Of a stretch of DNA of 64,000 nt, positions 7,213 to 56,967 are shown one piece after another. The notes beneath the pieces were generated by a model that did no database searches, was not told where the DNA came from, and was given only the letters and a program-made list of their open reading frames with translations. The stretch's first letter is position 1. Every line of letters starts with the position of its first letter. Both the position numbers and the translations under genes were made by a program. The stretch lies in IMG/VR virus record IMGVR_UViG_3300005253_000164. The stretch is one strand, 5' to 3'. This stretch comes from an uncultured virus (IMG/VR IMGVR_UViG_3300005253_000164) (Duplodnaviria; Heunggongvirae; Uroviricota; Caudoviricetes).

Positions 7213-7329
7213 TTGGTAATAGTTTAAGTTCTCTCCTCATGTTGACATTAATCGATCAATTATATTATACGAAATTCCAAAAAAGAATGCAATCTGAAAT
7301 AATTGCAGTTTTAAACGGAACTGATTCAA

Positions 7330-7503: not shown

Positions 7504-7534
7504 AACACAATGCCCGAATGCGAGGCTCTCCCCT

Positions 7535-7927: not shown

Positions 7928-8018
7928 ACAATTCGCACACACATAACATGCCCGAATGCGAGGCTCTCTCCTATCTATAAGGCGATTATTCGAAAAAATT
8001 ATAGAAAAGGTGAAATAA

Positions 8019-8261
8019 ATGACCAAAGAAAAAATTAGTGAAAGAGAAACAATTGCAGTTCTTCTGTATTTGATTGATGATTTGAAAAGAAAAATAATAG
8101 AAAAGGAAAAATTCCATCCTTATCAATTACCAACACTCAATTCCATTATTAAATGCACAGAAGAGAGTTATGTATTACCTTTGAAAGAAGAAGAATTTCA
8201 AAAAATTATTATTGATACAAAAAGGCATATATTATATACTCAAAAACAATTGCAGTTATAA
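8019..8261 (+). CDS. Hypothetical protein
   Basis: GGTGA SD upstream. Confidence 0.7.
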   Translation: MTKEKISERETIAVLLYLIDDLKRKIIEKEKFHPYQLPTLNSIIKCTEESYVLPLKEEEFQKIIIDTKRHILYTQKQLQL

Positions 8262-8374
8262 TTTTCATTTAATATCACACAATCAAGCCCGAATGCGAGG
8301 CTCTCTCAAATGTTTTAACAGAAACAGGAAAACGCTTATTCCCCCAAATGGGATAACAAGCAGGTGAAAAAAAA

Positions 8375-21549: not shown

Positions 21550-21610
21550 TTCTCTCAAAATCGGCAGGTTAAATAATCATGCCGAGTATAATATATATAG
21601 GGATACTCTC
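21547..21610 (+). promoter_or_regulatory. Internal promoter cassette (TCGGCA...TGCCGA palindrome + TATA) flanked by CTCTC on both sides
   Basis: 59 bp identical to 33826-33884; variants at 22690-22745 and 16368-16412. Confidence 0.85.
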
Positions 21611-21614
21611 TTTT

Positions 21615-22115
21615 ATGTCAACAAACACTAACAGACATACAAACAGACTAGAAAGACTATCAAAGATTGATCAGAGTGATTTATCCGAGGATGTATTAGA
21701 GGCTCTTGAATCACAAAGATATTGGGCTACAGTAAAATATATAGAAAATCATGGAAACAAAGGGAAGAAACATCCTTTTAGGACCAAGACAATAAATCAC
21801 TCTGAAGATGAAAGAAATAAGCTCTTAAAAGCTGCAAGACATGAAATAATCATGGGATGTTTTTCATCACAAATGATTAAAGATTTTTATAGAGAAACAA
21901 CTCCAATTGGATCTGACAAAGGAACAAAAAGAACTTTTGAGGAAGATTATGAAAATGGAGATGTTTATCTAATAGAACCAATGTTCTGTGCAATTTATAG
22001 GACTCTTCATCCAAATCTAAATACAAAAAACCAAAATAAGTTAGAAACTAATCCATTGGTAATAATACTACGATGGTGTTGGGAAGCTAAAAAAAAGGGT
22101 TTAGTGAAATATTAA
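21615..22115 (+). CDS. Hypothetical protein, close paralogue of 35363-35854
   Basis: Near-identical protein sequences; start corrected to the ATG after CTCTC. Confidence 0.85.
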   Translation: MSTNTNRHTNRLERLSKIDQSDLSEDVLEALESQRYWATVKYIENHGNKGKKHPFRTKTINHSEDERNKLLKAARHEIIMGCFSSQMIKDFYRETTPIGSDKGTKRTFEEDYENGDVYLIEPMFCAIYRTLHPNLNTKNQNKLETNPLVIILRWCWEAKKKGLVKY

Positions 22116-22155: not shown

Positions 22156-24020
22156 ATGATGAAAATGAAAAAGAAACAATATGAAATTAAATACGAAGAA
22201 ACGCAAGTGATCTATGTTGTGCACTCGTTAAAATTTGAGACTTACAAATATGATAAAATAATTATCACATATCTTGAAGATGAAGATCTACAAGTTACGT
22301 TTATACATATAGATGAAGATCATGGTGAGTATGTATATTATCTCGCCAATATAAAAAATCTTAATGAAACTGATTTAGAAAAAATAGGAGATAATGTTTT
22401 ACTTTACTATAAGTTAACTATAAATAGTCTAGTCTTGTCTAACGAGGAACCACAACCGATCAAAACGATCACGTATTTACAAATGTTTGATGAGGATCTT
22501 CAAAGAATAGAAAAAGAGATCTACATTGAAGACAGTCAATATGAAGACATGCTTGAACTTATCAATATGATGATGCAAGAAGTTGAAGTAATTGATCATC
22601 AAACAAAACAACTAAAATAAAATTTTTATTCTCAATATTTCTGAAAATAATAAGAATAAGTAATACTCTCAATGGTGAAAGAACTCATCAAAATCGGCAG
22701 ATTAAATAATCATGCCGAGTATAATATATATAGGGAAACCCTCTCAATGATAAGAGATGATTATATTTCAAATATTATTTTCAATCAACGAAATAATATT
22801 AAGAAAACACTTATCAAAATAGACGAAACTAAAGTTATCGAGATTAATTTTGTCCAATATTCCCCCCTAAAACATGGAACATGGGAATTTTGGACTTATG
22901 ATGGATATACATACTGTATAAGTAAGTATTATCTAAAACATCACAAATTACATACTAAATCTTCTCCTCTATATTACAGAGATGGAAAAATGCAACATAA
23001 TTGGTCTACTCTCGATGATGAAATATTCTTTTTTAGTGAGAAAAGAAGAAATGACTATATCTATTTAGCATTTAAAGTAGAATCTCCAATAAAAATAAAT
23101 ATAAAAGATCTTTAGTTCTCTCCTATGGTTAAAATATTTAGACTACTAACCATTATTATAAAAGCATTTTCAACAAAGTCTAATGAATATATTAGACCCA
23201 ATATAGATCACATAACGAAAACACCATGTTCTGATTGTAATAATAACAATCCGCGTGTAATGTATCGTATTTGTGATAGATTAACTCCAAAAGGATATAT
23301 TAATCGTGATGGCTCATCCCATGATGGGTGTGATGATTGCAACCCAGATGATTTCTTTACTAAAGAAGCAATCGAATGGAGCAAGAAAAACAAAGTTCCA
23401 TTTCATCTTATTGAATGGGATGTTAGATGCGGCCATTGTTGGAAATTAGGAGGATAACTTCTAATAGCTTTTACTCTCCAGATGTCAGAAGAAAACATCG
23501 ATAAACTAGCAGAAACCATCAAGGCATGTTTCATGGATGCAGAATTCATGGAAGACGTTTGGAAATATTTTTTAAACGAAATTGATGGTTGGGATAAAAC
23601 TGGTGATCACTCTGAAGAAGATCATGAATGCATGTTAAACATGTATGTGAGATTTGATAGAGAGACAGGCAATTACGAAAATACAGAATATCAAAATTCA
23701 GATCAGACCAATCAACCCTTTTCAACAGAAAGTACTGTTGTCGTGGCGATCATGGTATGCCCTGGATTTGATAATTCAAAAGATCAAATGCAAACCGATT
23801 TTATCCAAATGATAGATCAAGTCCTTTACGACTAGTTCTCTCTATGGCAGATGTTGAATATGCCTATATTTGTAATAATAGTGGATGTCCTTCCAGTTTT
23901 ATCCGATTTAAAAACGATGATGGTGGCAAATGCCCCTTTTGTGGTTTTGATATGGTAAAAAACACCGAGGATGTAAAAATGGAAGAAAAAACTAAGATTA
24001 CAATACTGGATGATAAATAA
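22156..24020 (+). CDS. Cassette genes 22156-22620, 22747-23115, 23125-23457 (Cys-rich), 23482-23835, 23844-24020 (58-aa Zn ribbon, not in track)
   Basis: ORF track plus manual translation; grouped entry. Confidence 0.7.
22690..22745 (+). promoter_or_regulatory. Copy of the internal promoter cassette
   Basis: AAAATCGGCAGATTAAATAATCATGCCGAGTATAATATATATAGGGAAACCCTCTC. Confidence 0.85.
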
Positions 24021-32307: not shown

Positions 32308-33828
32308 ATGGGAAAAATAAACCCCAAACCTATGAAACTCGTAAGAGAATTCAAAGGGATAACAATAACTATCGAATCAGAAAATTCAGATAGTATAGAT
32401 CTGGTTAATGATATGGCCGATGACATTGGTAGTATAAGCAGACACGACCTAACAATATATTTGGGTAAATTCACTCTAAAAGGTACTGCAAGAGTTCTAT
32501 CAAACAAAGAAGCATATCCATTAATCATGGAGCAAATTCAGAAAGATAAAGATTCGCAAAGATTTAAATCCTCTGAATAGTTCTCTCATTTACTCTCAAA
32601 GGTTAGAAAAATGTTAACCAAAAAAGAAAAAGAAATAATAGACAAAGATTTTAGTTATTGCTATCATTCAGTTGATTTCGAGATCCCCAATAAAAAATTG
32701 GAAGTGGTTTCTGAAAGTAAATATATTACTGAAAAAACAGACGAACTGAATTATACATTTAGAGATCGTTTAACTTTATCTGAAAATGATCTTGGCAGTT
32801 TCAAAAACAAATTCAATGACATATTGGCTCAAATTAAGGAGTTAGTGGATCAGAGAAAAACAAATGAGACTGAAAAGGTAAAAAAACGAGATGATATTCT
32901 ATCTGTAGAATATTCTCCTTTACAAACAGAGAAAATACAAATAGAGGAAGAATATTATGAAGTTAAAAGAATATTTGATAAAGTTAGTAATGCTAAAAAT
33001 GCATTGCAAAAACGATTAAATGATATAAATGATGCAATAAAAATCTTGACAAAAAGTGAAAAAATGATAAAGGTTGAAATAGACCTGTTTGAAAATTATG
33101 GTGCTAAAGATGCAGCTATTGTTGAAAAGATAGATCATATTATTGATGATCTTGAATCAAGAGTTGATACCATTAGAGAAACTGCCATAAACGAAAAACA
33201 GAAAAAGGAAACCAAATTGGACCTGGTAATTAATACCTATGCTAAAACAATATTAGAACACAAATTCCCTAAAAGGAAAGATGGGACTTGGTGGACTAAT
33301 AGTATAAAGTATCTAGAACGCAGAGAAAATATATTTAATCATTACAAACTGGAACGATCTATTCCCAATAGATTTACTAATACTATTGGAGAAAATCGTA
33401 AATTAAAGAAAATACTCTTTGATTTCGAATATTATCGTATGGTTGGAAAATCAATGAAAATTAATAATATTCCCATTTATGTAAGTGAAGGGTCGTATAT
33501 TGGTGTAACACCAATATTAAAGCCCGATATTAAAAACCAAATGATTAAAAATTCTGTAAAATTAGATGAGGATCAATTTAATATTCTTAAAAAGAATCTG
33601 GAATATTCTATGTCTGGAACATCTGCCGATTCATTTAAAATTGATGAATGCAGGTATCCTCTGGATGGATTGACCAGCTTTGAAGAATTTGATAATGAAT
33701 TATTAAATGCGTATTTTCTTACATCAGAGAAAAAACCAAAATATTTTAAAGAAGGCACATCATTTTTACTACTTTTAGAGACTCCTTACTCATTATGGGT
33801 ACTCACACCTATATTAGTAAAGGAATAG
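32308..33828 (+). CDS. Hypothetical 32308-32580 and coiled-coil protein 32611-33828
   Basis: ORF track; heptad-rich N-terminal half in the latter. Confidence 0.75.
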
Positions 33829-33890
33829 TTCTCTCAAAATCGGCAGGTTAAATAATCATGCCGAGTATAATATATATAGGGATAACTCTC
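33826..33890 (+). promoter_or_regulatory. Copy of the internal promoter cassette
   Basis: 33826-33884 identical to 21547-21605. Confidence 0.85.
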
Positions 33891-35378
33891 ATGATAACAT
33901 TATTAGAAATTGGAATCATCATAGGGGTGGTTCTACTTTCTTATTTAATAATCAGAAAATTAACTCCTCCAATAAACTGGTATCTCGAAATGTATAAACA
34001 TCAGACATACATTGTACACACAACTGATGAAAAACTAATTGGTAAAAAAACCAAAGAAAAAATCGGTGGTAGAAATGGATTGCATATAACAACCTATTAT
34101 AAGCGAAAACCAGAATTAGTTCAACGCATGGATACATACTTTAAGAAAAATCCCGATGTAGTGCCAGTTACAGCAGAACAGCATGTAAAAACGATGAATA
34201 AAATTATGGCTGAACTTAATAAGGAGTAAATCTCTCTATGTCAAACACTGACAACGAAAAACTAAATAAATTATTTAATTTATTTATAGAAAATAAAAAA
34301 TTAATAATTTCGAATCTAAAATATGCATTAGATAGAACTGAAACAATAATGAATATACACAAGGATAATCCAGCTTCAGATCGTGATAATCCAGCTTGGG
34401 CATATCATTATGAAGAAACTATAGGATGGGATATTAATAAGGAGATGGTCCCCAAATTAGAAGATGAGATCAAACAATTAAAAGAAATTATTCCAAAAAT
34501 AGAAGAAATTAATTAATTACTCTCAATGACACTATTAACAATAATATATAGTTTCAAAATAATGGAGTGGGGCGGTATACTCTGCTACTTATTAAAAAAT
34601 CAAAACAATGAACATTTTGCTATCAAAGCAGATTTTTTGGGTAAAATACGAGTAAGAGAACCAAGAGCACCAAGGGGGCATCCATCTACAAATCTAATAG
34701 ATCTAAAAACTCTTAAAGCAGGGAACACAGTAAAAGTTTCTCTTACTTTCACTCAAATGATAGAATCCACAGTTGAATTTCTTAAAAATATAAAGTGGAT
34801 CACACCTATTATATTGTTTTAATTCTCTCATGCCTCTTACCGAAGAACAAAAGAAGTTATTTGCAAGAAAAGACTATGAAGTTTGGAAACGAGCTTCAGA
34901 TCATTCAGAAGATATTGAAATGGTCTTTGAGACAGATGATGAATTAGAAGCATACAAACAAGCAACTGTAAAGAATTACACAATGGATATAAAAGATAGG
35001 ACATCATTTTTTTACAATGTAAAAATTGTAAAAGTAGATAAACTACACCATGCGTATAAAGCCCAAGACAAATTATACCAACTCTGGGCAGAAGACGCAA
35101 AAAAGAATTCTGAATAGTTCTCTCCAATGAAAGTACCAACACTTTTACAACAACTTGCTATGGAATCTTTTAAAAATGACATACAAGAGAAATATTGGGA
35201 ATCAACAAATTACCCAGACAGCAAAAGAATAATAATTGTTGTCAAAAACACATTTTCTCTTTGTGATGATATTTTATACAGGGAACCTAGCATAGAAGTT
35301 ATTGCAATCGACACAGATGGATCAAAAGAAGGAATTGATGCATATTGTGAAGAAGCTCTCCTATGTCAAACGATATAA
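33891..35378 (+). CDS. Cassette genes 33891-34229 (N-terminal TM), 34238-34516, 34526-34822, 34830-35117, 35127-35378
   Basis: CTCTC starts; grouped entry. Confidence 0.7.
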
Positions 35379-35854
35379 CAAGTAGACTAGAAAAACTATC
35401 GAAGATTGATCAGAGTGGTTTATCCGAAGATGTGTTAGATGCTCTTGAATCCCAGAAATATTGGGCTACAGTAAAACATATCGAAAACCATGGGAATAAA
35501 GGGAAAAAACATCCTTTTAGGACCAAGACAATAAAACACTCTGAAGAAGAAAGAAATAATCTCTTAAAAGCTGCAAGACATGAAATAATCATGGGATGTT
35601 TCACATCACAAATGATTAAAGATTTTTATAGAGAGACAACTCCAAATGGATCTGACAAGGGAACAAAAAGAACCTTTGAGGAAGATTACGAGAATGGAGA
35701 TGTTTTTCTATTAGATCCAATGTTCTGTGCAATTTATAGAGTCCTTCATCCGAATCTAAATACAAAAAACCAAAATAAGTTAGAAAACAATCCATTGTTA
35801 ATAATACTACGATGGTGTTGGAAATCTAAAAAAAAGGGTTTAGTGAAATATTAA
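35363..35854 (+). CDS. Hypothetical protein, close paralogue of 21615-22115
   Basis: Direct sequence comparison. Confidence 0.85.
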   Translation: MSNDITSRLEKLSKIDQSGLSEDVLDALESQKYWATVKHIENHGNKGKKHPFRTKTIKHSEEERNNLLKAARHEIIMGCFTSQMIKDFYRETTPNGSDKGTKRTFEEDYENGDVFLLDPMFCAIYRVLHPNLNTKNQNKLENNPLLIILRWCWKSKKKGLVKY

Positions 35855-46139: not shown

Positions 46140-46476
46140 ACCATTCAAATCCAGAAAAAAATTGATCAGAGATAATAAGCTGTTGAATGATAAAATAACT
46201 ATTCAAATAGAAATAGATGCCTATAAAGATGATCTAATCACAACATTGAGGAACATATTGGTATACAAAGATGAGAGGCTCACCCTTCAATATCTCAAAG
46301 CAGATAAACTATTAAAAGACGCTAATGAATCATTAGTCGATAGAATTAATATTCAAACAGCAACAGATGGATACAAAGATGATATGAATAACACTTTAAA
46401 ATCTCTATTGGAATATAAAGAAGATATAATCGAGATGCAAGCCGATAAACTGAATAAACACAAACGAAACGAATAA
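46117..46476 (+). CDS. Coiled-coil protein with an internal duplication
   Basis: IQIEIDAYKDDLITTLRNILVYKDE vs IQTATDGYKDDMNNTLKSLLEYKED. Confidence 0.7.
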   Translation: MELRLMIRPFKSRKKLIRDNKLLNDKITIQIEIDAYKDDLITTLRNILVYKDERLTLQYLKADKLLKDANESLVDRINIQTATDGYKDDMNNTLKSLLEYKEDIIEMQADKLNKHKRNE

Positions 46477-46512
46477 ACTGAATAAACACAAACGAAACGA
46501 ATAAACTGAATA
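46445..46512 (+). repeat. 28-bp tandem repeat x2.4
   Basis: ATAAACTGAATAAACACAAACGAAACGA. Confidence 0.9.
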
Positions 46513-46656
46513 GATTCAAACCAATAAAATATTCATTTCTGATTAAATATAATATATAATTTTGTGAACAAATCTTTACCATAATTTATACAATCTAAAA
46601 AAAAATGAACAATAACCTTAATAATATTTATTCAAAGATATATTTAAGAGAATAAA

Positions 46657-47100: not shown

Positions 47101-49064
47101 ACTTTCAATTTATATATTCATCATCATTAATCAAATACTATGGATCATGGAAAATATTTTGGAAATGAAGAACTAAGTGATGGTGAAGTATGGTCACTAA
47201 TTGCATATTCTATTTTATTCATTATAGGCTTAATTATAATTTTTAGAAAATCACCTACAAAATACAAACTTGCAGACATATTAGTATTTCTTGGTTTGTT
47301 TTTAATTCTTGCCCAAAATACATATCATTTAGAACATGGTGAGCAATTGGAACAATATCAACTCATGGGTTACGCACTGATTTTCGGATTAATAAATTAC
47401 ATTGTTGGATGGGTTATGGCAAATAATGGATTTCCTGTGTCATTCATTGATCATAGTAAAGATGCATTCTATTGGTTTGGATTATTCTTGGTATTAGCAA
47501 CTATTATATTTGTCATGTTTGGCACATTTGATTCGGGATACCCAGGTAATCTTACTAATACTGAAAAATATATTGCTTATACTGGAATTGTAGGTGGTAT
47601 ATTATTACTGACATCCTATCTCGCTGTTAGAAGTAAAAAATAAATTTATATTGAATTTACAAATATTAGAAACATAAACTGAACTTTCAATTTATATATT
47701 CAACCCAGATATACAATTTATATGGCAAAGACAAAAAGCTCAGACATGTTTGGATTTATAGGAATCGCAATGGGATCAATGGCAATCGCTATGGCAGTAT
47801 TGAGGGCATTATTTGGTGAAAGTACCCTGTTTGATCTCTCAAAAGGAGCTTTCCTTGATGTTTCAGATGCAATCATAGTAGCAGTATTATTTTTTGGTGG
47901 AATTTTTATATTGGCTGTATCTGTTAAAAACAAAAAGAAAAATCAGATTGCAGTAGATACAATTGTTATAATTGTTATAATTGTGGTAATAAACCTACTC
48001 CTTGATGTTGAGTTTGATCTCTTCAATTTTTAAAACATAAACCGAACTTTCAATTTAAATAATCAGCAATGTTAACTAAATTGTGGATATTTTCATATCA
48101 GTCTATCTTATAATGGTTGCAGTCATACTTAAACCAAGACTTGAAAGAGTGATAAAGCGTATTCCAGAAAATTATTTGATTTGGTTAGCATTTTCTCCAA
48201 TTATTTTATACTTCCTAAGTTTCTACAATTGGTTATATGATAGTTACCTTTCAATTAGCTCAAGACAAATTGAATTTTCTGGTAGTGAAAGTCTGATTCA
48301 TCCAATAAATGCATTTATTTTTGTTACAATATCTTATTGGGTAGTAGGCTACGTGTTGTTGATATTCTATGAAAAGATAAAGGAGAGATCTACCAATGCC
48401 AAAAAAGAAACCTAAAACAATTAATGTTTCATACACATTATTATTCATATTATCTTGGTTTTTAATACCAAGTATTTACGCTTATACTGTAATTAACCAG
48501 ATATTTCTAGCAATAGGAATTACTGAAATTAATAAAAATATATACAGCTCGGTATTCATTGTTCTTGGAATAATAATAACAGCTTTCGTATTCTGGATAA
48601 GCAATTACAAAAGCAAGAAGTAAAACTTAAACAGAACTTTGAATTTTTAAATGAGATGAAATACTATTAATTATATGAAAAAAATGAGACTTTTGGGATT
48701 TTTTGTATCCATAGTTGGGATAATTTTCTATGCTATGGGTTTTCACGCTCTATTTTATGGAAGTAGTGGTCTATTTGAAAATATTGTGGATCAATTGGTT
48801 GATATTATTGCAATAGGTGGAACTCCATCTTCAGCGATAAATTATTCTATTGCAGTTGGATTGTTTTTAGTTGGAGCCTTCTTTATAATTGGTGGTGGAT
48901 CATTAATGCCAGATGTAAATAAGAACGTAACAAAGCTTTTCAAAACTTCGTTTATTGTGATAATTGTAATTCCTTTCGTAGTAATGATTTATAATTATGT
49001 AAACGATGTTGATTTTGATGTATTCAATTTATAAAAACATAAACAAAACTTTCAACTTTTAAAT
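47088..49064 (+). promoter_or_regulatory. Five copies of promoter motif AAAC(A/T)TAAACNRAACTTTSAAYTT(TATA-like) at ~47088, 47670, 48033, 48623, 49035
   Basis: Read directly; TATA-like part ~25 nt before each ATG; relatives at 2200, 40815, 56634, 56970, 63068. Confidence 0.85.
47140..49034 (+). CDS. Cluster of five small membrane proteins (47140-47643, 47722-48033, 48083-48415, 48396-48623, 48675-49034)
   Basis: 2-5 TM helices each; 47722 and 48675 share the C-terminal DVxFDxFN. Confidence 0.8.
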
Positions 49065-49088
49065 TCCAATAGTTTATTGGTATATGTA

Positions 49089-49808
49089 ATGCCTCGATCA
49101 AGTAAACGTATCTCCAATGAGAAGGCAATCGATGTGAAGGGAACGTCACTTAAAACAAAGACTTTACCCAGAAATATACTACCTGTTAAACATCATGCAG
49201 CAGCAGTTGCAACTGAACAGATAGTAATTTCCGATGAACACATTGCAGGGCTTCTTGAAGAGGGATGGACCAAGGAATCAACTTTTGAAACAGAGGTTTT
49301 AGAAGATATTTATCCTGGCTCTACTGATCATCATTTATTGAGTAAACATCTAAAAGCAAGAGGTTTTCGATTAATAAATGATCTACCAATGGAGTTAGAA
49401 GTTGCTATGCTGGATAAACAGAAATTAAAGGATGCAGATTATATATTCGAGTTATCCAGATCTGATGCAAAAGCCACTGTTCTGACGAGAACTGCTGAAA
49501 AATATACCAAAGCCCTACCCAGATACAATCCGAATGATCCCAACAATAATTTCTTTGGAAGAAGTTATGTGGTTGCTGTGATTGATGAATTTGGGAAAGT
49601 ATATGCTATATCTGTCTCACAAAATATACTAAGACAAATCCCAACTACAAAGAGAAAGGGGCGACCACAAACCAACCTTCACACATTCAATAATGCATAC
49701 AAAAAAGAAACTAAGAATGCAAGAAAGGCATATAGTCGCCAAGATACACAAGGCAGATATTCAAAGAATCGAAAAGATTATGTTGATGAGCTGCGAGGTA
49801 AAAAATAA
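49089..49808 (+). CDS. Hypothetical protein with basic N-tail
   Basis: MPRSSKR...RNILPVK; first gene of the coupled 49-54 kb operon. Confidence 0.75.
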   Translation: MPRSSKRISNEKAIDVKGTSLKTKTLPRNILPVKHHAAAVATEQIVISDEHIAGLLEEGWTKESTFETEVLEDIYPGSTDHHLLSKHLKARGFRLINDLPMELEVAMLDKQKLKDADYIFELSRSDAKATVLTRTAEKYTKALPRYNPNDPNNNFFGRSYVVAVIDEFGKVYAISVSQNILRQIPTTKRKGRPQTNLHTFNNAYKKETKNARKAYSRQDTQGRYSKNRKDYVDELRGKK

Positions 49809-50719
49809 TGAAAACTCGTAAACGCATTCTTACTAGTCCAAAAGGTAAGAAAAGAACCATTGATGTGAATTCTGGGACAAAGAAACCAATTAGGAAAAGC
49901 AATTTATTACCCCCACAATACACTATCAATATGACTCAACCAACAGGGAAGAACCGAATTCTTGTAAATCGAGGTGAAGTTCCTTATAGTGACATAATGT
50001 TCCATAAGGACCAAAAGAATTCTTCTTCATTAATAGTGAAAAGAAAATATCGTAAAAAATTCATCTCGGCAGGAATAATTGGAGAACCAGTTGGTCTTGG
50101 AGTTAGGAAAAAAGATAGGCAATTTGATAAGAATCCAACAAATTTTACAGTTAGTCCTTACGATATGATGTATGCCAATGAAATTGGTTTACTTGATCCA
50201 GAAACGATGTCAAGACGACAAGTAACCAGAGAATTAGAAAGATGGGGATTAAGACAGGATCCAGCTTTCTTTAACAAATATTCCTCTTATAAAAAGTTGA
50301 GAGATAATGGTTTCATAGTAATGAGTGGCCTTCAATATGGAGTTGACTTTGTTGCATATGATCTCACACCTACTGAATTTACTTCTAAAGAGATGAAGAA
50401 ACACAGTAAATATATGATTGATATTATGGATGAACCAACTCTTCACATGTCTAACATAATTAAAGGACTGGAAGAAGCTAAAGAAATCAATAAGGAATAT
50501 ATTCTCATGCAAGCAGGAGATACTAAACTATCCAAGAGGTACTTAGATCGCCCAACTGATAAAATTAGGTTCTACGCTATTGATGCAGAAGCACTTCTTG
50601 TGGATAATGAATATGATCTGGATGCTGTAATTATGAGGCGGATAAAGCAATCCAAAACATATCGGACTTTTCCAGTGGAAATTAGGGACACCTATGTGGA
50701 GTTAGATGACGATGAGTGA
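49808..50719 (+). CDS. endA: tRNA-splicing endonuclease-like protein, catalytic type
   Basis: KYSSYKKLRDNGFIVMSGLQYGVDFVAY...HSKYMI...EINKEYIL aligns to the EndA catalytic domain with the Tyr/His/Lys triad. Confidence 0.8.
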   Translation: MKTRKRILTSPKGKKRTIDVNSGTKKPIRKSNLLPPQYTINMTQPTGKNRILVNRGEVPYSDIMFHKDQKNSSSLIVKRKYRKKFISAGIIGEPVGLGVRKKDRQFDKNPTNFTVSPYDMMYANEIGLLDPETMSRRQVTRELERWGLRQDPAFFNKYSSYKKLRDNGFIVMSGLQYGVDFVAYDLTPTEFTSKEMKKHSKYMIDIMDEPTLHMSNIIKGLEEAKEINKEYILMQAGDTKLSKRYLDRPTDKIRFYAIDAEALLVDNEYDLDAVIMRRIKQSKTYRTFPVEIRDTYVELDDDE

Positions 50720-51656
50720 AAAACCAAAAAGAAAACATTATGCTAAAATTAAGAAGCGGATGTCTGCTAGAGGCACTACCGAGGCAATGAATAAACATTC
50801 TGGGAGATCATTTGAATCAAGTGCAATAAAACAAGCAAAGACCACTCAAAATACACGAATATGGAATTCAAGAAAACCAGAATTGATATATGGCCCATAT
50901 TTAGATAATAATTATATTCCACCTGTGATGAGGGAAGAATTAAAATTATTAGGTGTTCATTATCGTGTGGGAAGAGATACTCCCTATACTCCAGTAATTG
51001 CTATGGATCCATACAAAGTTTCAATACAAGAACTACATGACCATGGTATTGTTATTGAAATGAATAGACAAGATCGTCACAAATGGAGAATGTCTGGTTA
51101 TGATTTACTTCACATTCTAGAGAATAAACTAATCCAAGATAGTCCAATAAATGATCGCAGCTATGATGCATTCAGAAATTATATGGAAAGTCAAGATCCA
51201 GATTTCACAGAAAAATATTTTGTCTATAAAGAATTGAAGGAATCTGGTGCAATAGTTATGGATGCCACAATGCATGGTTATGACTTCATTGTGTATGAAG
51301 AACCAAGTGAGGACTTCATAAAAGAATTACAGAAAATTCCTATTGCAAGAATCGGAGCTAAGAAGAATCTTCCAGATAGACGTAAGAGTAGTTTTGCATC
51401 CATAAACGGTGTCGGATTGGTGACAGTAATGACTGCCGATAATGAATACACAGTGAAAGAAGTAATCAAAGCACAACACATTGCACAGAAGAATAAGATC
51501 AAATATCTTATGACTAATGCAGATGGGTATCATGATGAGGATGGGCATTTAGTTGTTCCAATAGAGAATTCGACCAAAGTATATGACACAAGACATATGA
51601 GGAAGAATTTAACTACTGCCAGAGGTAATGAAACAATTATTGGAACTGGTGAATAA
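50706..51656 (+). CDS. tRNA-splicing endonuclease-like protein, probably structural subunit; RxHY N-tail
   Basis: KYFVYKELKESGAIV...GYDFIVYE; catalytic His not evident. Confidence 0.7.
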   Translation: MTMSEKPKRKHYAKIKKRMSARGTTEAMNKHSGRSFESSAIKQAKTTQNTRIWNSRKPELIYGPYLDNNYIPPVMREELKLLGVHYRVGRDTPYTPVIAMDPYKVSIQELHDHGIVIEMNRQDRHKWRMSGYDLLHILENKLIQDSPINDRSYDAFRNYMESQDPDFTEKYFVYKELKESGAIVMDATMHGYDFIVYEEPSEDFIKELQKIPIARIGAKKNLPDRRKSSFASINGVGLVTVMTADNEYTVKEVIKAQHIAQKNKIKYLMTNADGYHDEDGHLVVPIENSTKVYDTRHMRKNLTTARGNETIIGTGE

Positions 51657-52846
51657 TGGGTAAAAATCGCAGATCTCACTATAAAAAGAAAGGAACAAAA
51701 GTGTCACACTATGCTCCACGATCATTAAAAGATGTGAAACCTATCAAGTGGGATCAGTTCGCAACTGATAAAGAGGGTAGAAAAGTAGCTCCAGAAACAA
51801 GGTTTGTTAGAGGGCAACATAACGATTACCATTCTTTATCATCCCCTAAAGGAAATAAAGGAATTGTTTACCCAAAACATTTTCCTAATCCAAATACAAT
51901 CATCATTGATGCAAACACAGATCACATAGACGTAAAAGTGATTATAGAGAATTTAGTTCAACATGGAATTGATCCAGATGAAATAAGACAAGATTATGAA
52001 GAAACATTTTATTTAACTTCTTTAATAAGGGGAGTTCTGGTTAATGGTGGTGTCAGAGAGATAAAAGTGTTTGGTGAAACAATCAAAACTGAAGAATCTG
52101 TAATTGAACGCTATGATCGCTTAGAGACACTTGGTTTGACTGATATGGTCATTGATGCACAATATAATACAATTATGGATCTGATAGAATTAGCAGATGG
52201 TAAATTGGCAACAGATGTTTCTCTCCAATATAAGACAATAGAGAAAACAAGAGGAATGGTCCCTGTCATTGATGCGTCTAATTATACCACAGATAATCTA
52301 GATGATCGACCACTGACACATATTTTCAAAAATTATTTTGGTCAACCTGGATATGATATAAACGAGAATCTATATTTAGTTGCAGCTAAAATAATAAATC
52401 TTGTTTATGGATTACAGTCTGCAATGGAACAAGCTGAACGTAAGGCACTTCCAGAACAAGCTGAAGAACAAGCAAAAGAATCTGCTGAAATAATAGAAAA
52501 AACTCAAGAAGATCTATCAAAGATAATCTTCGAGGCATATCAAAAAGAAACTACTATTAAGGAAAAAGGTAGAAAAACTTCTGTTAGAATTGAAGAGCCA
52601 TCAGAATTAACAAGTAAAGAGCAAAGGACTGCTCAAAGAATATTTGAGAAACCTCAAGGTGTAGATTTATTATCTGAACTAGACAAAGCTCTTGAGAAGT
52701 TGACTGTTTCAGAAGAAATAATCATCCCAGAAGAAATAATCAAGGAAAAGAGAATTGGTTCTAGTTTTGAGAATTTAGAATCAGTTGAAGAAATCCTTGA
52801 TAATTGGGAGCCTCCTGTAAGAAAAGAAAAGGAGGAATCTGAATGA
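51656..52846 (+). CDS. Hypothetical RxHY-tail protein with MIM-like C-terminal module
   Basis: C-terminal block shared with 52843. Confidence 0.8.
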   Translation: MGKNRRSHYKKKGTKVSHYAPRSLKDVKPIKWDQFATDKEGRKVAPETRFVRGQHNDYHSLSSPKGNKGIVYPKHFPNPNTIIIDANTDHIDVKVIIENLVQHGIDPDEIRQDYEETFYLTSLIRGVLVNGGVREIKVFGETIKTEESVIERYDRLETLGLTDMVIDAQYNTIMDLIELADGKLATDVSLQYKTIEKTRGMVPVIDASNYTTDNLDDRPLTHIFKNYFGQPGYDINENLYLVAAKIINLVYGLQSAMEQAERKALPEQAEEQAKESAEIIEKTQEDLSKIIFEAYQKETTIKEKGRKTSVRIEEPSELTSKEQRTAQRIFEKPQGVDLLSELDKALEKLTVSEEIIIPEEIIKEKRIGSSFENLESVEEILDNWEPPVRKEKEESE

Positions 52847-54441
52847 GACGACAACACTATAAGAAATCTGGTGATAAAGCCAGAAAGATGAAAGGCAATT
52901 CCAAAAAACCTGTTCATAGAAATAGAGTTATTCATCGTGTGGATCAAGGCCAATATATCTCCAACAATTTTTTAAATTCAAATGATATAGATGGAGATTT
53001 CTTCAGCTCTTCTGAAGAGGCAACCATTAAAAACAGACAAATGATCCGCCCAAAAATATTCGACATTTTAACTGGTGATGCTATAACTATTTTGAAAAAC
53101 TCCTATCCCACCAATAGAGATAGACACTTAACCCAGATTAATGAAGAATTAAATGAACAATTCAATCTGGCAACAAGTGAGCAGAAGGGTTGGGTTAAAC
53201 TGGAACTATTTATAACCCCCTCTGACCAATTACAATTCAATCTGACCTTATTTGGTGGAGATGAGGATGATACTTCAGAGGATAATTTACAAATAATTTT
53301 TGAAGAATTAGAAGATCCTCTGAACCTACATTATAAAGAGCAATTCTTCAAAAATTATGCCGAGCTACCATCTCTTGATATATTTAAAGATGAAATGGAT
53401 CAGAATATAGAAAAATCAGTTGCTTCAATTGTTAATGATCTAGATCCATCAATGTATGAACAAATGAAAACTGATGAAGGAGAGCCAATTCCCAACGCTT
53501 ATGGTCCAGCCCCAATGGTAATGCTTGCATATGAGACAGGACAAGCACCAACATATGCTGCTGAGTTAGAAAAATTAATAGATCCAGGTGCAAAGAAAGA
53601 GGGAATTAGTCCACCTAAAACAATGGCAATAACTACTTATCAAGCAATAGTAAGATATGTTGACATGCGAAATGAAGAATTAAGAGACTGGACTGATATG
53701 CATAATGAAGTGTATTTCAGGGGTTGGTATATGAATAATTTGGATTATACCCCTCTTGCAGAGGCATTTAATGCAGAATATAATAAACAAATAGATGGGT
53801 TATATGAACAACTAGTCGAGGATACTCCCAACGGAATAAATCTTCCCGAAGACGATCAAGTAACTGAAGATGGGATAATTGATAGTTTTATTGACATAAC
53901 AGGAGTCACACCTGTTTTCAAATATCATACAGATGAATATGGCAAAAATTTGGGATTATTTGATGAGGAAACAGGGAAACTTATCACATTGGGAACCATA
54001 GATGCCTTCATTAATGAAATTATAGCACATGGAGTTATGGGTGGATTACCTAAGATGGATATGGATGGGCAATACTTACGTAGACAAACTCCTTCCCCTG
54101 TTAGTAAAAAGACAGCAAGAAGAATATTTGATGAAAAATCTGAATTAACCAATAAAGAACGAAGGACTGCTCAAAGAATATTTGAGGAACCAACAGGTAT
54201 TGATTTATTGTCTGAATTAGATAAAGCACTAGAAAAGTTGAATGTTGTAGAAGCAAAACCAAAAATCAGAGAAAAGGCAAAGGAAAAACCTAGAAGGGAA
54301 AGATCTGCTTTTGAAAACATATCTACTGAAAAATCTGCATTTGAAGGATTAGAATCAATTGATGACATTCTTGACGATTGGGAAATTCCAGTAAGAGAAA
54401 AGAAATCAAGAGAGAGTGTAAAAGAAAGAGAAAAAATTTAA
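52843..54441 (+). CDS. Acidic hypothetical RxHY-tail protein with MIM-like C-terminal module
   Basis: C-terminal block shared with 51656. Confidence 0.8.
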   Translation: MRRQHYKKSGDKARKMKGNSKKPVHRNRVIHRVDQGQYISNNFLNSNDIDGDFFSSSEEATIKNRQMIRPKIFDILTGDAITILKNSYPTNRDRHLTQINEELNEQFNLATSEQKGWVKLELFITPSDQLQFNLTLFGGDEDDTSEDNLQIIFEELEDPLNLHYKEQFFKNYAELPSLDIFKDEMDQNIEKSVASIVNDLDPSMYEQMKTDEGEPIPNAYGPAPMVMLAYETGQAPTYAAELEKLIDPGAKKEGISPPKTMAITTYQAIVRYVDMRNEELRDWTDMHNEVYFRGWYMNNLDYTPLAEAFNAEYNKQIDGLYEQLVEDTPNGINLPEDDQVTEDGIIDSFIDITGVTPVFKYHTDEYGKNLGLFDEETGKLITLGTIDAFINEIIAHGVMGGLPKMDMDGQYLRRQTPSPVSKKTARRIFDEKSELTNKERRTAQRIFEEPTGIDLLSELDKALEKLNVVEAKPKIREKAKEKPRRERSAFENISTEKSAFEGLESIDDILDDWEIPVREKKSRESVKEREKI

Positions 54442-54484: not shown

Positions 54485-55948
54485 ATGTCAAAAAGACCTC
54501 ACTTCTCAGTCGATCAATCCAAGTCAAAGGCATCGAAGAAGAATCCAAAGAAAATTAAAAAACAAAGGTCTAATATACTCACTCCTAAGAAGATAAAATC
54601 AAACATAAAACAATCTGCATTGAGGGCAAGACAACAATATTCCAATAAAAATTATTACACTGCAATTGAGGGATTAGGTGATGCTCTTGGAATGTACGAT
54701 GATTTAATTGATCAACTATATTCAGACAAAATATTATCTGATGGTCAGAGAAAGGATTTTCTTTCTCAATTCCAAAGAGAAAAGGATAAACTTGATGATA
54801 GAATAGAAAAAATCCAAGATAAACTAGTTGAACAAGGCGATGAGATAGCAATAATTGATCCTCAAAATAAATTTGCTCCTTTAATTACTACAAGAGACAA
54901 AATTGAAGAATTTCCAGATGTTGAGGATGTAATAGGGAATGATCATATGAAGACTTCGCTGTTACAGAATATAAAATTAGCTCAAACTAATCCTTTGATT
55001 GCAAAACAATTAGGAATTGGTAAGAATTATCTAATGTTTGGTCCACCAGGGACAGGAAAGACATTACTTGCAAAAGCATTTGCAAAAGAAACAGGTATAA
55101 ATTTCATGAATATAGAATCTGCCAATGTTTTGTCAGAGAACTTTGGAGAATCAGAGAAGAATCTGAAAGGTATATTCGCATTCGCCAGAAAGAACAAACC
55201 TACATTCATGTTCTTTGATGAGATAGATCAACTAGCTGGAACCAGATCTGGGAAAGAAGCAGGAGCAGAAACCAGAGTAAAAACCGCATTTCTGGCAGAA
55301 GTATCAGGTTTCGCAAGTGAAAATGAGGATGTATATATATTGGGGTCAACAAATCGACCTTGGGCTTTAGATCCAGCATTCAGATCAAGATTTACTGTTC
55401 AGAAGTATGTGGGCTTACCAACTCCAGAAGAAATAGGTATAATGACAAAGAGAATGCTAGAAAATCCAGAATTCCAAGAAGATTTAGTAAAAACTAAGGA
55501 TCTGGATTATGATGAACTTGGTCAATTAATGAAGGGGTATGCTGGAAGAACTGTCACAGAGAGTATCGTACAAGAGATTAGACTGATACCAATTCATGAA
55601 CAGATTGCCAAGACAGGAATTTTGGATTTGACAAAAACAAGACCTATTACTATGGCTGACTTTAGGAAGAAAATAAAGGAAACACCTAAAGCAACATCTG
55701 CTGCTGAATTGAAGAAATATGCAGAATATCGGACAGAAATGGGTGAAACTCTGGATGAGGAAGAGCCAGTTGTCATTGATACGAGAAAAGTTGTAAGAGT
55801 CGGAACTAGTAGTCGAGGTACTGTCAAGGGTTTATACAAAACAATGGCAGGGGCAGAAGATGCTAAAGATAAGAGAGGCGGAAGAGATGAGATCTATCCA
55901 GTCAAGGGAGGATGGAAAATTAGACGACCAAAAAAAAAGGTGAATTGA
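54485..55948 (+). CDS. vps4: Vps4/CdvC-like meiotic-clade AAA ATPase with putative MIT domain
   Basis: GPPGTGKT, GESEK, FFDEID, RVKTAFL, GSTNRPWALD, Vps4_C-like PITMADF...LKKYAEYRTEMG; three-helix MIT-like N-region. Confidence 0.75.
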   Translation: MSKRPHFSVDQSKSKASKKNPKKIKKQRSNILTPKKIKSNIKQSALRARQQYSNKNYYTAIEGLGDALGMYDDLIDQLYSDKILSDGQRKDFLSQFQREKDKLDDRIEKIQDKLVEQGDEIAIIDPQNKFAPLITTRDKIEEFPDVEDVIGNDHMKTSLLQNIKLAQTNPLIAKQLGIGKNYLMFGPPGTGKTLLAKAFAKETGINFMNIESANVLSENFGESEKNLKGIFAFARKNKPTFMFFDEIDQLAGTRSGKEAGAETRVKTAFLAEVSGFASENEDVYILGSTNRPWALDPAFRSRFTVQKYVGLPTPEEIGIMTKRMLENPEFQEDLVKTKDLDYDELGQLMKGYAGRTVTESIVQEIRLIPIHEQIAKTGILDLTKTRPITMADFRKKIKETPKATSAAELKKYAEYRTEMGETLDEEEPVVIDTRKVVRVGTSSRGTVKGLYKTMAGAEDAKDKRGGRDEIYPVKGGWKIRRPKKKVN

Positions 55949-56328
55949 AAACACCATCACTAATAACTGAAAAATATTTACGTAATAATAAAAATAAAAT
56001 ATTTGTTTTCGGAGACAATTTAGATCGTAAAGGAAAAGGAGGAGCAGCTAAATTAAGAGATGAAAAGAATACTTATGGATTTATTACCAAGAAACATCCT
56101 AGATCCAACGATAGTGACTTCTATACTCCAGATGAATATAAGGAAGTCTATAATCTAGAAATCATAAAACTGAAAAAAGAAATTTCTGCCAATCCAGAAA
56201 AAACATATTTAATATCGAACATTGGTGGGGGCTTAGCAAACAGGTTTGATATTAAGAAAGAGGTTATTGATAAAAATCTAAAAAAAGATTTAAATAAATT
56301 CAATAACATAGAATTTTTAGAAGAGTAA
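55945..56328 (+). CDS. Phage A1-like/macro-like domain protein
   Basis: IFVFGDN...GKGGAA...YGFITK...IGGGLA. Confidence 0.55.
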   Translation: MKTPSLITEKYLRNNKNKIFVFGDNLDRKGKGGAAKLRDEKNTYGFITKKHPRSNDSDFYTPDEYKEVYNLEIIKLKKEISANPEKTYLISNIGGGLANRFDIKKEVIDKNLKKDLNKFNNIEFLEE

Positions 56329-56387
56329 AAAGAAATAAAATATCAATAAATTAAAAAGATTTAAAAACATTAACTATACTATTAATC

Positions 56388-56967
56388 ATGCAAGAAAAAC
56401 TAAAATTACATTTAATGCATTTGAAAGGCATTATTTGGGGCATACCAATATTATATATTTATTCATTATTTATAGAGGCTTTCATCATTAATCCATTACA
56501 ATTAGACAAAAGACTTTTCGGGTTCATATACTTTTTTGGATTTTTATTATTTATTTTTATATTTGTAAAGGTACTAATATTATTATTGAAAGATTTGAAA
56601 TATTGGGTTAATCAGTTTAGAGAATTTGAATGGAAAAACATAAACAAAACATAGACTATTAAAATCTCATTAAAATAGTATTACTTGATCTAAGATGATA
56701 TTAACAAAATTAATGAAATATAAAGAATACACCTGGTGGTCTAGCGAGAGAAAACTGGTAGATAGTTGGAAATCATTTGGTTATTTATTCCTAACATGGT
56801 TATTATTTAACTTAATAACATTCTGGATTGTATCTTTAACTATCAGTCCTAAACACTTAGCACTTAGTGGGATTATAGCCATCATCATATGGACATTATT
56901 CCCTCACTACAAAATCATCCACAGATATATTAGCAGTATAGAGAAATCGAATGAAAATAATCTTTAG
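56388..56967 (+). CDS. Two 2-TM membrane proteins (56388-56654, 56695-56967)
   Basis: Hydrophobic hairpins; second preceded by the AAACATAAAC motif. Confidence 0.75.

What the first reader, a model, noticed from the sequence alone, without database searches (positions are those of the whole stretch)
49808..51656. Tandem divergent EndA pair (catalytic + structural) on an element with no visible tRNAs: candidate array-processing nuclease
Seen: two adjacent EndA-fold genes. 49808 keeps the Tyr/His/Lys triad (FVAY, HSKY, INK), but the segment matching EndA's RVAHSVRK reads EEAKEINK, so the conserved arginines linked to bulge-helix-bulge recognition appear replaced. 50706 lacks the His, as in (alpha-beta)2 enzymes. 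Known: EndA cleaves RNA leaving 2',3'-cyclic phosphate and 5'-OH. Inference: a retargeted viral endoribonuclease that may cut at CUCUC in the array transcript, or attack host tRNA/mRNA.
Basis: partly seen in the sequence, partly recalled or inferred. Interest (0 to 1): 0.85.

Follow-up and report, generated by a model that had tools for sequence, protein, structure and literature searches.

The report
Mobile-element EndA-type RNA endonuclease gene pair
A large uncultivated archaeal virus-like element from marine sediment carries its own diverged two-subunit version of the enzyme that archaea use to cut introns out of tRNA, and no such element-borne enzyme turned up in the literature searched, though what RNA it cuts is still unknown.

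Summary
ORFs 49808-50719 (EndA1, 303 aa) and 50706-51656 (EndA2, 316 aa) both pass Pfam's tRNA_int_endo cut-off, and both models match whole EndA subunits. EndA1 keeps Tyr184/His199/Lys229; EndA2 keeps only the Tyr. By alignment, both bulge-clamp positions of canonical EndA are non-basic in EndA1 (E222 where 38 of 48 aligned sequences have Arg).

The pair belongs to a small clade found only in metagenomic contigs of up to 151 kb. A 100/100 branch separates it from 30 cellular EndAs, and EndA2 arose by duplication inside the clade. Gene order (239-aa protein, EndA1, EndA2, basic-N-terminus protein) is kept in a relative at about 28% identity and in a second study's contig at about 94% nucleotide identity.

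The "array-processing" reading is not supported. CTCTC is a start-codon-proximal motif of a separate class of about 50-70 small genes, not an array. The EndA operon has ordinary Shine-Dalgarno sites. Bulge-helix-bulge candidates are no more frequent than in shuffles, and the junctions are unstructured. The window has no tRNA or Rfam match.

Most likely this is a heteromeric EndA-derived RNA endonuclease of an archaeal mobile element with altered substrate recognition. The substrate is unknown.

The parts
49033..49071 (+). Promoter-like repeat element (AAACATAAAC...TTTTAAATT) directly upstream of the operon. The TATA-like box lies about 28 nt before the ATG at 49089.
   Evidence: Repeat family D5, 5 copies, also before the genes at 47140, 47722, 48675 and 56695; sequence read. 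Promoter function is inferred.
49089..49808 (+). 239-aa protein (243 aa from the TTG at 49077), first gene of the operon, with a basic N-terminus. Possible third, degenerate EndA/Hjc-fold paralogue.
   Evidence: 29% identical orthologue in the same position in L001. hhalign to EndA profiles gives probability 30-41%, E 3-5e-4, over the Y-x-x-L-K-x-x-G-F helix-strand region. Atlas feature hits are Hjc clusters at 0.84, a lead only. Inconclusive.
49808..50719 (+). EndA1, the catalytic subunit (Y184, H199, K229). E222 sits at the Arg-clamp position. Basic, disordered N-terminal stretch of about 50 aa and a C-terminal extension of about 45-60 aa.
50706..51656 (+). EndA2, a non-catalytic paralogue. 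Tyr197 is kept, while His and Lys are replaced. A conserved Q-H occupies the Arg-clamp position in its family. Its start overlaps the end of EndA1 by 14 nt.
51656..52846 (+). 396-aa protein of unknown fold. N-terminal RRSHYKKK motif, and a C-terminal module shared with the next gene.
   Evidence: (repeat D6). The start of a probable orthologue follows EndA2 in L001.
52843..54441 (+). 532-aa protein of unknown fold. N-terminal RRQHYKK motif, with the same C-terminal module as the 396-aa protein.
54485..55948 (+). AAA+ ATPase closest to CdvC/Vps4, with an N-terminal KRPHF motif.
   Evidence: Pfam AAA E=1.6e-35, Vps4_C weak. NCBIfam CdvC E=1e-49, below the equivalog cut-off.

Best explanation
EndA1 and EndA2 are the catalytic and non-catalytic subunits of a heteromeric RNA endonuclease derived from the archaeal tRNA-splicing endonuclease. 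It is carried by a large, uncultivated, virus-like mobile element of a sediment archaeon; an Asgard host is only weakly hinted. EndA1 would cut RNA by the EndA chemistry (Tyr/His/Lys-assisted attack of the 2'-OH, giving a 2',3'-cyclic phosphate and a 5'-OH). EndA2, a duplicate that lost His and Lys, would act as the structural partner that positions the active sites, as beta subunits do in (alpha-beta)2 enzymes. Both canonical bulge-clamp positions are non-basic in EndA1. The clade also carries its own conserved loop insertion and C-terminal extension. Substrate recognition has therefore probably shifted away from the strict bulge-helix-bulge clamp. The target is structured RNA of the host or of the element, serving RNA maturation or host takeover. 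Shown: fold, residues, clade, duplication, operon and synteny. Inferred: heteromer formation, chemistry, altered specificity and target.
For: Family and fold. The triad is intact in EndA1 and in 5 of 8 90%-identity clusters of the clade. EndA2 lacks His and Lys. Paralogy: BLASTP gives 33% identity over 86 aa, E 2e-10. Tree of 45 sequences: EndA1-type plus EndA2-type are split from 30 cellular EndAs at 100/100, and EndA2-type is monophyletic (100/95) and sister to an EndA1-type member (98/92). Overlapping starts and stops and Shine-Dalgarno sites indicate co-translation. The gene order is conserved in L001 at 27-30% identity. One 5.5-kb contig of a second study covers 48993-51662 with 151 differences and 1 gap. 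Orthologues at 93-95% identity of all three proteins lie on 97,456-bp contigs. Non-cellular context: nearly all genes are on one strand and most are orphans, with a phage-type GP88 family member, two PAPS-reductase-like PHROG hits and a TnpB. No full-length clade member was found in 400 Asgard genomes, which carry only short cellular EndA genes. Arg clamp: E222 against R in 38 of 48. The cellular C-terminal W/R-x-K/R-P motif is absent and replaced by a loop and an extension. The role of these residues is taken from passages of PMC12397907 and PMC6379350.
Against: No binding, stoichiometry or activity data exist; the complex predictor was unavailable. EndA2's model is only moderately confident (pLDDT 62), and its Pfam match covers 35 of 85 profile positions. 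Both proteins fall below the NCBIfam endA equivalog cut-off (47.5 and 25.3 bits against 59.6). The clamp comparison rests on sequence alignment, not on superposed coordinates, and nearby lysines (K219, K225) could substitute. Three of 8 clade clusters have an incomplete triad (F for Y, no H, R for K). No viral hallmark gene (capsid, portal, terminase) was recognised in the window, so 'virus' is not shown. The host assignment rests only on a TnpB 50-52% identical to Heimdallarchaeota copies.
Confidence: 0.6

Rival explanations
1. It is a canonical BHB splicing endonuclease kept as an auxiliary gene. It removes introns from tRNAs encoded elsewhere on the 151-kb element, or boosts or replaces host pre-tRNA and rRNA processing during infection.
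For: The triad is intact and the fold is the full two-domain subunit. Five of 8 clade clusters keep a basic residue at the Arg-clamp position. Only 64 of about 151 kb could be inspected. Candidate host lineages have their own two-gene EndA and hence BHB substrates.
Against: The window has no tRNA, not even an intron-containing one, and no Rfam hit. There is no BHB excess. E222 sits at a position where a positive charge is described as indispensable and where R280A abolishes cleavage in the A. fulgidus enzyme (passages of PMC12397907). The second clamp motif is absent. No RNA ligase or kinase partner was recognised among the window's ORFs of 90 aa or more.
Confidence: 0.22
2. One reading: the enzyme cuts at or near CUCUC(C) between the tightly packed small genes. 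This would turn polycistronic RNA into monocistronic, near-leaderless mRNAs, or would switch that gene class off.
For: The motif is highly enriched and strand-specific: 120 CTCTC against 19 expected and 37 GAGAG, with 81 copies 0-5 nt before an ATG. The junctions are punctuated: 34 of 54 spacers are 5-15 nt and only 1 overlaps, against 13 of 61 overlaps in the other class. The EndA operon belongs to the other gene class, so it could act on this one in trans. The canonical clamp residues are lost.
Against: EndA-family enzymes recognise structure, and the junctions show none: no BHB, no conserved flanks beyond -9..-1, and a weaker fold than controls. The position directly before the ATG fits a translation or transcription start signal equally well. 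The motif is not clustered in any of 400 Asgard genomes, and the only related DNA in hand (L001, 5 kb) does not cover such a gene block, so co-occurrence could not be tested.
Confidence: 0.07
3. The proteins no longer act as RNases. They would be structural or nucleic-acid-binding components (for example packaged with the other proteins that share the basic N-terminal motif), or Hjc-like DNA nucleases.
For: Eleven proteins, including both EndAs, share a basic N-terminal motif that suggests common targeting. Hjc resolvases appear as distant fold and feature neighbours. Three of 8 clade clusters have an incomplete triad.
Against: The Tyr/His/Lys triad is complete in EndA1 and in 5 of 8 clusters despite 27-36% overall identity, which argues for retained RNA-cleavage chemistry. 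Hjc matches are far weaker (E>0.02) than EndA matches (E about 1e-9).
Confidence: 0.07
4. The contig is part of an archaeal chromosome, and the pair is simply that organism's own, fast-evolving alpha/beta EndA.
For: Archaea with (alpha-beta)2 enzymes have two EndA genes. No viral hallmark gene was identified in the window.
Against: No housekeeping gene, tRNA or rRNA occurs in 64 kb. The clade is separated from 30 cellular EndAs at 100/100, and its 'beta' arose by internal duplication. The proteins are about 100 aa longer than cellular subunits and have extra termini. The strand-uniform array of small orphan genes with its own start motif is typical of viruses and plasmids.
Confidence: 0.04

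Closest known systems
(alpha-beta)2 heterotetrameric archaeal RNA-splicing endonucleases (Aeropyrum pernix 3P1Z/3AJV, Sulfolobus tokodaii 2CV8, Pyrobaculum aerophilum 2ZYZ, Nanoarchaeum equitans 3IEY/3IF0)
   Same: One subunit has the Tyr/His/Lys triad and one paralogous subunit lacks catalytic residues. Both have the two-domain EndA fold. These are the best structural matches.
   Different: The non-catalytic subunit arose by a separate duplication inside the element clade. The genes are adjacent and overlapping, whereas they are unlinked in the two Heimdallarchaeota genomes checked. The subunits are about 100 aa longer, with basic N-terminal tails and C-terminal extensions. The clamp Arg is replaced in EndA1, and the W/R C-terminal motif is absent. 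The pair is carried on a mobile element.
epsilon2 EndA of ARMAN-2 (4FZ2, 9W2K) and the Methanopyrus kandleri heterotetramer (fusion construct 5X89)
   Same: These are examples of EndA remodelling by duplication and rearrangement of units, with extra loops that change substrate range. 5X89 is the best sequence hit (E 1.4e-14).
   Different: Those enzymes keep the Arg clamp (R275 in ARMAN-2) with a Trp and cut tRNA introns (PMC12397907 passages). The element clade has a different insertion (G-x-R-D-x-x-G-H-L hairpin loop) and no shown substrate.
Eukaryotic TSEN (Sen2/Sen34 catalytic, Sen15/Sen54 structural)
   Same: Heteromerisation of EndA paralogues into catalytic and structural subunits. TSEN chains appear among the fold hits.
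   Different: TSEN hits are far weaker, and there are no Sen54- or Sen15-specific features. A third paralogue here is only a weak possibility.
Phage T4 RegB endoribonuclease (recalled from memory, not from any call)
   Same: A functional analogy only: a virus-encoded RNase that cuts within translation-initiation regions of one temporal gene class.
   Different: The fold is unrelated, the recognition is of the sequence GGAG, and the host is bacterial. No evidence here shows that the EndA pair acts on the CTCTC motif.

Membership tests
EndA / tRNA_int_endo (PF01974) | Match to the catalytic C-terminal domain profile above Pfam's gathering score | tested here: met
   EndA1 56.2 bits and EndA2 29.1 bits, against a cut-off of 27. 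EndA2 matches only profile positions 1-35 of 85.
EndA / tRNA_int_endo (PF01974) | Two-domain subunit fold (N-terminal domain plus C-terminal alpha/beta domain) | tested here: met
   Foldseek TM to target is 0.71-0.76 for EndA1 and 0.5-0.66 for EndA2, over whole subunits of about 180 aa. Models have pLDDT 72.6 and 62.0.
EndA / tRNA_int_endo (PF01974) | Catalytic triad Tyr-His-Lys | tested here: met
   EndA1 has Y184/H199/K229 in the conserved columns. EndA2 keeps Tyr197 only, as non-catalytic subunits do.
EndA / tRNA_int_endo (PF01974) | Arg that clamps the first bulge base (A. fulgidus R280, ARMAN-2 R275; Lys minus 7) | tested here: not met
   E222 in EndA1, against R in 38 of 48 aligned sequences. 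Within the clade a basic residue is kept in 5 of 8 clusters. The residue's role comes from PMC12397907 passages.
EndA / tRNA_int_endo (PF01974) | Second clamp residue (Arg or Trp near the C-terminus) | tested here: inconclusive
   The cellular motif Y-x4-(W/R)-x-(K/R)-(P/L) is absent from the clade by alignment. No coordinate superposition was possible.
EndA / tRNA_int_endo (PF01974) | Oligomer presenting two active sites spaced for the two bulges | not testable with these tools
Inferred only from paralogy, operon structure and synteny.
EndA / tRNA_int_endo (PF01974) | Cleavage of bulge-helix-bulge RNA to a 2',3'-cyclic phosphate and a 5'-OH | not testable with these tools
   Needs biochemistry. 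No BHB excess in the window.
Cellular endA equivalog (NCBIfam TIGR00324) | Score above the curated equivalog cut-off (59.6 bits) | tested here: not met
   47.5 bits for EndA1 and 25.3 bits for EndA2. In the tree the clade lies outside 30 cellular EndAs.
(alpha-beta)2-type EndA | Distinct catalytic alpha and structural beta subunits descended from the cellular alpha and beta lineages | tested here: not met
   The composition is alpha/beta-like, but EndA2-type sequences nest inside the element clade (100/95; sister to P0005 at 98/92) and do not group with cellular subunits.

The most novel reading that the evidence does not exclude
The element encodes an EndA-derived nuclease that has given up the bulge clamp. 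Possibly as a three-paralogue complex with the 239-aa protein, it recognises the UCUCUCCU punctuation placed between stop and start codons of 50-70 small genes. Cutting there would turn long transcripts into near-leaderless mRNAs, or would shut that gene class off. This would be a sequence- or junction-directed descendant of a structure-specific splicing enzyme, used for viral gene-expression control in archaea.
Probability: 0.07. Interest if true: 0.9.

Novelty: new variant of a known kind. Interest (0 to 1): 0.62.

Why it matters
EndA is regarded as a cellular housekeeping enzyme of archaea and eukaryotes. Three full-text searches found no report of a virus- or plasmid-borne EndA. An element-specific clade that independently re-evolved a catalytic plus structural heteromer parallels the origin of crenarchaeal (alpha-beta)2 enzymes and of eukaryotic TSEN. 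Its changed clamp residues point to a new RNA specificity, so it could be a new archaeal virus-host RNA interaction and a source of new RNA-cutting enzymes. If the host is an Asgard archaeon, which is only weakly hinted, it would add to what is known of the biology of their mobile elements.

Tried and rejected
**Related DNA**
- IMG/VR scans with six clade members found none.
- Metagenome scans: P0003 gave nothing; P0008 gave L001.
- Genome contigs with EndA1 gave nothing.
- tblastn with EndA1 against phages and against plasmids gave nothing.
- tblastn with the 1278-aa protein against phages gave nothing.
- No whole genome is held for the window.

**Homologue searches by word index**
- They returned only the window's own proteins and the 93-95% and about 28-31% lineages.

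**Complex prediction**

**Expression**
- No RNA holder is listed. Only four marine-sediment DNA runs from two studies hold the stretch.
- Transcript ends could therefore not be examined.

**Other operon proteins**
- The 396-aa and 532-aa proteins have no significant PDB sequence match, no PHROG and no PADLOC hit.
- The 396-aa protein's DncV_C hit (E 0.0084, below cut-off) is dismissed.
- The atlas had no usable hit for the 1278-aa protein.

**Third paralogue**
- hhalign probability is 30-41%, atlas Hjc leads score 0.84, and no deeper profile was obtainable. Left open.

**CTCTC as a host signal or a marker of related elements**
- No Asgard genome of 400 has more than 5 scattered copies of ATCTCTCCTATG, close to the reversed-pattern control. 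The window has 8 in 64 kb.
- L001 has 13 CTCTC against 4.8 expected, but they are not at gene starts.

**Earlier scan notes**
- Nothing on this genome or sequence.

**TATA-box reading of the CTCTC class**
- There is only a weak A/T rise at -27..-24, so separate promoters for every gene are not supported.
Full report
**Observation.**
The two ORFs are real and adjacent on the + strand: 49808-50719 (303 aa, EndA1) and 50706-51656 (316 aa, EndA2), overlapping by 14 nt.
Both pass Pfam's gathering score for tRNA_int_endo. EndA1 scores E 3.7e-15 and 56.2 bits over residues 154-235. EndA2 scores E 1e-6 and 29.1 bits, over residues 167-200 only.
Sequence searches of the PDB return only EndA and TSEN chains. 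The best is 5X89, the Methanopyrus kandleri fusion enzyme, at E 1.4e-14 for EndA1 and 7.9e-4 for EndA2.
AlphaFold2 models (pLDDT 72.6 and 62.0, with disordered termini) match whole EndA subunits. EndA1 matches 2CV8_B, 3P1Z and 1A79 with TM to target 0.71-0.76. EndA2 matches 1A79_A at 0.64 and the N. equitans structural subunit 3IF0 at 0.66.
The two proteins are paralogues, 33% identical over 86 aa with E 2e-10.

**Residues.**
I aligned 48 sequences: EndA1, 10 clade members and 37 further hits.
Y184, H199 and K229 of EndA1 fall in columns that are Y in 45, H in 42 and K in 41 of the 48.
EndA2 keeps Tyr197 but has Asn/Gly in place of the His and Ile in place of the Lys. It therefore lacks two of the three catalytic residues, not only the His.
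Passages of PMC12397907 name the ARMAN-2 triad Y236/H251/K282. They describe R275 (equal to A. fulgidus R280, seven residues before the Lys) as clamping the first bulge base together with a Trp or Arg. They state that R280A abolishes cleavage and that a positive charge there is indispensable. A passage of PMC6379350 agrees that two Arg, or Arg plus Trp, are the recognition residues.
In EndA1 that position is E222, where 38 of 48 sequences have Arg.
Cellular sequences end Y-x4-(W/R)-x-(K/R)-(P/L). The clade lacks this ending. It has a longer hairpin loop (G-x-R-D-x-x-G-H-L in several EndA1-type and EndA2-type members) and an extension of about 45-60 aa.
Within the clade the Lys-7 residue is basic in 5 of 8 90%-identity clusters (K, R, R, R, R) and E, H or L in the other three.
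The triad is complete in 5 of 8 clusters. P0004 has Phe for Tyr, P0005 lacks His, and P0007 has Arg for Lys.

**A distinct clade.**
An exhaustive HMMER search of 1.84 billion representatives gave 52 hits at E<=1e-3.
- One is a 118-aa fragment at 93% identity.
- Seven are full-length relatives at 29-36% identity (E 8e-39 to 6e-17).
- The rest begin at E 1.4e-8, and three of them (P0010, P0012, P0014) turned out to be EndA2-type.

All clade members come from metagenome-derived sources and carry no names, on contigs of 3 to 151 kb.
For the maximum-likelihood tree I used 45 sequences:
- 9 EndA1-type;
- 6 EndA2-type;
- 20 of the single-unit cellular hits;
- 10 of the 13 EndA ORFs recovered from Asgard loci.

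I left out the longer two-unit proteins, near-duplicates, and three of those Asgard ORFs.
A 100/100 branch separates EndA1-type plus EndA2-type from all 30 cellular sequences. EndA2-type is monophyletic (100/95) and sister to the EndA1-type member P0005 (98/92).
The non-catalytic subunit therefore arose by duplication inside this lineage, not by capture of a host beta subunit.
The tree is unrooted, and the alignable core is short (243 columns).
Both proteins are below NCBI's endA equivalog cut-off.

**Conserved module.**
EndA1 and EndA2 sit in a run of overlapping or abutting genes:
- 49089-49808 (239 aa);
- EndA1;
- EndA2;
- 51656-52846 (396 aa);
- 52843-54441 (532 aa);
- then a CdvC/Vps4-like AAA ATPase at 54485-55948.

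The operon genes have GGAGG/GGTGA-type sites. The operon follows a repeated promoter-like element whose TATA-like box lies about 28 nt before the first ATG.
A 5-kb metagenome contig (L001) encodes the same order after small membrane proteins: the 239-aa homologue (29% identity), the EndA1 homologue (27-28%), the EndA2 homologue (30%), and then a basic-N-terminus protein.
Homologues at 93-95% identity of all three proteins lie on 97,456-bp contigs.
In a run from a second study, one 5.5-kb contig covers window 48993-51662 with 151 differences and 1 gap.
The 239-aa protein may be a third, degenerate paralogue. hhalign gives probability 30-41% and E 3-5e-4, aligned over the Y-x-x-L-K-x-x-G-F helix and the later hairpin. 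Atlas feature neighbours are Hjc-type nucleases at 0.84, below the level that counts. No deeper profile could be built, so this stays inconclusive.

**What the element is.**
- The window is about 32% G+C.
- Almost all ORFs are on the + strand.
- Of 59 ORFs of 90 aa or more outside the operon, only 6 have a Pfam family: PrsW, an IS605-type TnpB, AAA, phage GP88 and DUF7831.
- Two ORFs hit the PAPS-reductase-like phrog_424.
- GP88 relatives are in 360 phage records.
- No capsid, portal or terminase gene was recognised.
- The TnpB's nearest relatives among 185,579 species genomes are multi-copy elements of Heimdallarchaeota MAGs (50-52% identity), followed by Bathyarchaeia and Methanomethylicales. 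This is a weak host hint.
- Two Heimdallarchaeota genomes each have two unlinked cellular EndA genes.
- In 400 Asgard genomes, 383 matched the clade profile, but in the rows listed these were short cellular genes (open frames mostly about 185-250 aa, best 100 bits, core only). No full-length clade member was seen.
- The stretch is held only by marine-sediment DNA runs.

I read it as a large virus-like or plasmid-like archaeal element. "Virus" is not shown.

**The CTCTC link.**
CTCTC occurs 120 times on the + strand, against 19 expected from composition and 37 GAGAG. Eighty-one copies lie 0-5 nt before an ATG.
Forty-nine of 107 non-nested ORFs of 60 aa or more, all between 7535 and 39647, have the consensus TCTCTCCT-ATG at -8..-1. 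There is only a weak A/T rise at -27..-24. Their median length is 95 aa.
Seventy distinct start codons carry the motif.
The junctions are punctuated. Thirty-four of 54 spacers are 5-15 nt and 1 overlaps. In the other class, 13 of 61 overlap and 4 of 61 are 5-15 nt.
It is thus a gene-start signal of one gene class, not a repeat array; Tandem Repeats Finder reports no such array.
The EndA operon belongs to the other class.
A strict scan for bulge-helix-bulge candidates used a 4-bp central helix, two 3-nt bulges and flanking helices of at least 5 bp, up to 3 kb apart. It gave 11 on the + strand, 10 on the - strand, and 6-16 in ten dinucleotide shuffles, none at a junction.
Junction windows fold more weakly than windows 150 nt downstream (mean -9.3 against -12.0 kcal/mol), and the motif is about 50-60% unpaired.
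Nothing therefore connects the EndA pair to the motif, but nothing excludes it either. There are no RNA data, and the only related DNA does not cover such a gene block.
The motif is not a general Asgard signal.

**Mechanism, with odds.**
- *Best explanation (0.6).* This is a heteromeric EndA-derived endoribonuclease of the element. EndA1 is catalytic, EndA2 is structural, and substrate recognition is altered. It acts on structured host or element RNA.
- *Rival: canonical BHB splicing enzyme (0.22).* It would serve tRNAs encoded elsewhere on the element, or host RNA.
- *Rival: loss of RNase function (0.07).*
- *Rival: cellular genes on a chromosome fragment (0.04).*

Fold, residues, clade, duplication, operon and synteny are shown. 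Heteromer formation, chemistry, specificity and target are inferred. The complex predictor was unavailable.

**Novelty.**
Three full-text searches found no virus- or plasmid-encoded EndA (listings and abstracts only, apart from the two papers read in passages).
I rate it a new variant of a known kind: an element-specific EndA clade with an independent catalytic/structural split and changed recognition residues.

Noticed in passing
window 7535-39647 (+ strand): A class of about 50-70 small genes (median 95 aa) each preceded by TCTCTCCT directly before the ATG, usually as stop codon, 8-10 nt spacer holding the motif, then start. It is not complementary to the anti-Shine-Dalgarno sequence, has only a weak upstream A/T rise, and is absent from the other gene class, which uses GGAGG/GGTGA. 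Its role (translation, transcription start or RNA processing) is unexplained.
   Followed up: partly
window gene starts 2262, 3107, 3905, 50706, 51656, 52843, 54485, 57027, 57577 (variants at 49089 and 49808): Nine proteins begin with a shared basic motif, [KR]R-x(0-2)-H-[YFS], often followed by K-K, within the first 12 residues. The codons differ between copies, so the conservation is at protein level. Similar N-termini occur in distant relatives (L001, P0004, P0005, P0007, P0014). This suggests a common targeting, packaging or RNA-binding signal for two gene clusters that include the EndA pair, a Vps4-like ATPase and a 1275-aa protein.
   Followed up: partly
window 52590-52718 and 54128-54256: The 396-aa and 532-aa operon proteins share a C-terminal module (129-nt repeat at 81% identity; ...ELT-x-KE-x-RTAQRIFE-x-P-x-G-x-DLLSELDKALEKL..., and a further shared acidic tail ending ...W-E-x-P-V-R-x-K-K).
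   Followed up: no
window 792-1976 (- strand): An IS200/IS605-type TnpB (NCBIfam guided_TnpB, E 3e-77), the only long gene on the minus strand. Its closest relatives are multi-copy elements in Heimdallarchaeota MAGs (50-52% identity).
   Followed up: partly
window 5130-5188, 16346-16404, 21547-21605, 22680-22738, 33826-33884: A 59-nt repeat, present five times, with a 6-bp hairpin (TCGGCA...TGCCGA) followed by TATAATATATATA and GGGA. It looks like a promoter or operator. Two copies are 100% identical.
   Followed up: no
window 21639-21938 and 35378-35677: A 300-nt direct repeat at 91% identity, 13.7 kb apart, covering the starts of two paralogous genes (21579-22115 and 35363-35854).
   Followed up: no
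window 5814-8374: Two further repeat families before genes in this block: GCCCGAATGCGAGGC followed by TCTCTC (5 close copies), and a 51-nt element with an imperfect hairpin ending in AGGTGA (3 close copies). They may be leader RNA elements.
   Followed up: no
window 55937-56633: In the related strain of the second study (run X4), one contig joins 55936 to 56634 with 5 other letters between. That strain therefore lacks the DUF7831 gene (55945-56328) and the next small ORF.
   Followed up: no
window 46445-46531: A 28-nt unit (ATAAACTGAATAAACACAAACGAAACGA) in 2.4 tandem copies at 100% identity. The X4 strain has one unit fewer (28 nt left out at 46445).
   Followed up: no
protein P0005 (metagenomic clade member): An EndA1-type sequence that lacks the catalytic His, carries His at the Arg-clamp position as EndA2-type proteins do, and is sister to the EndA2 family in the tree. 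It may be an intermediate or a second kind of non-catalytic subunit.
   Followed up: no
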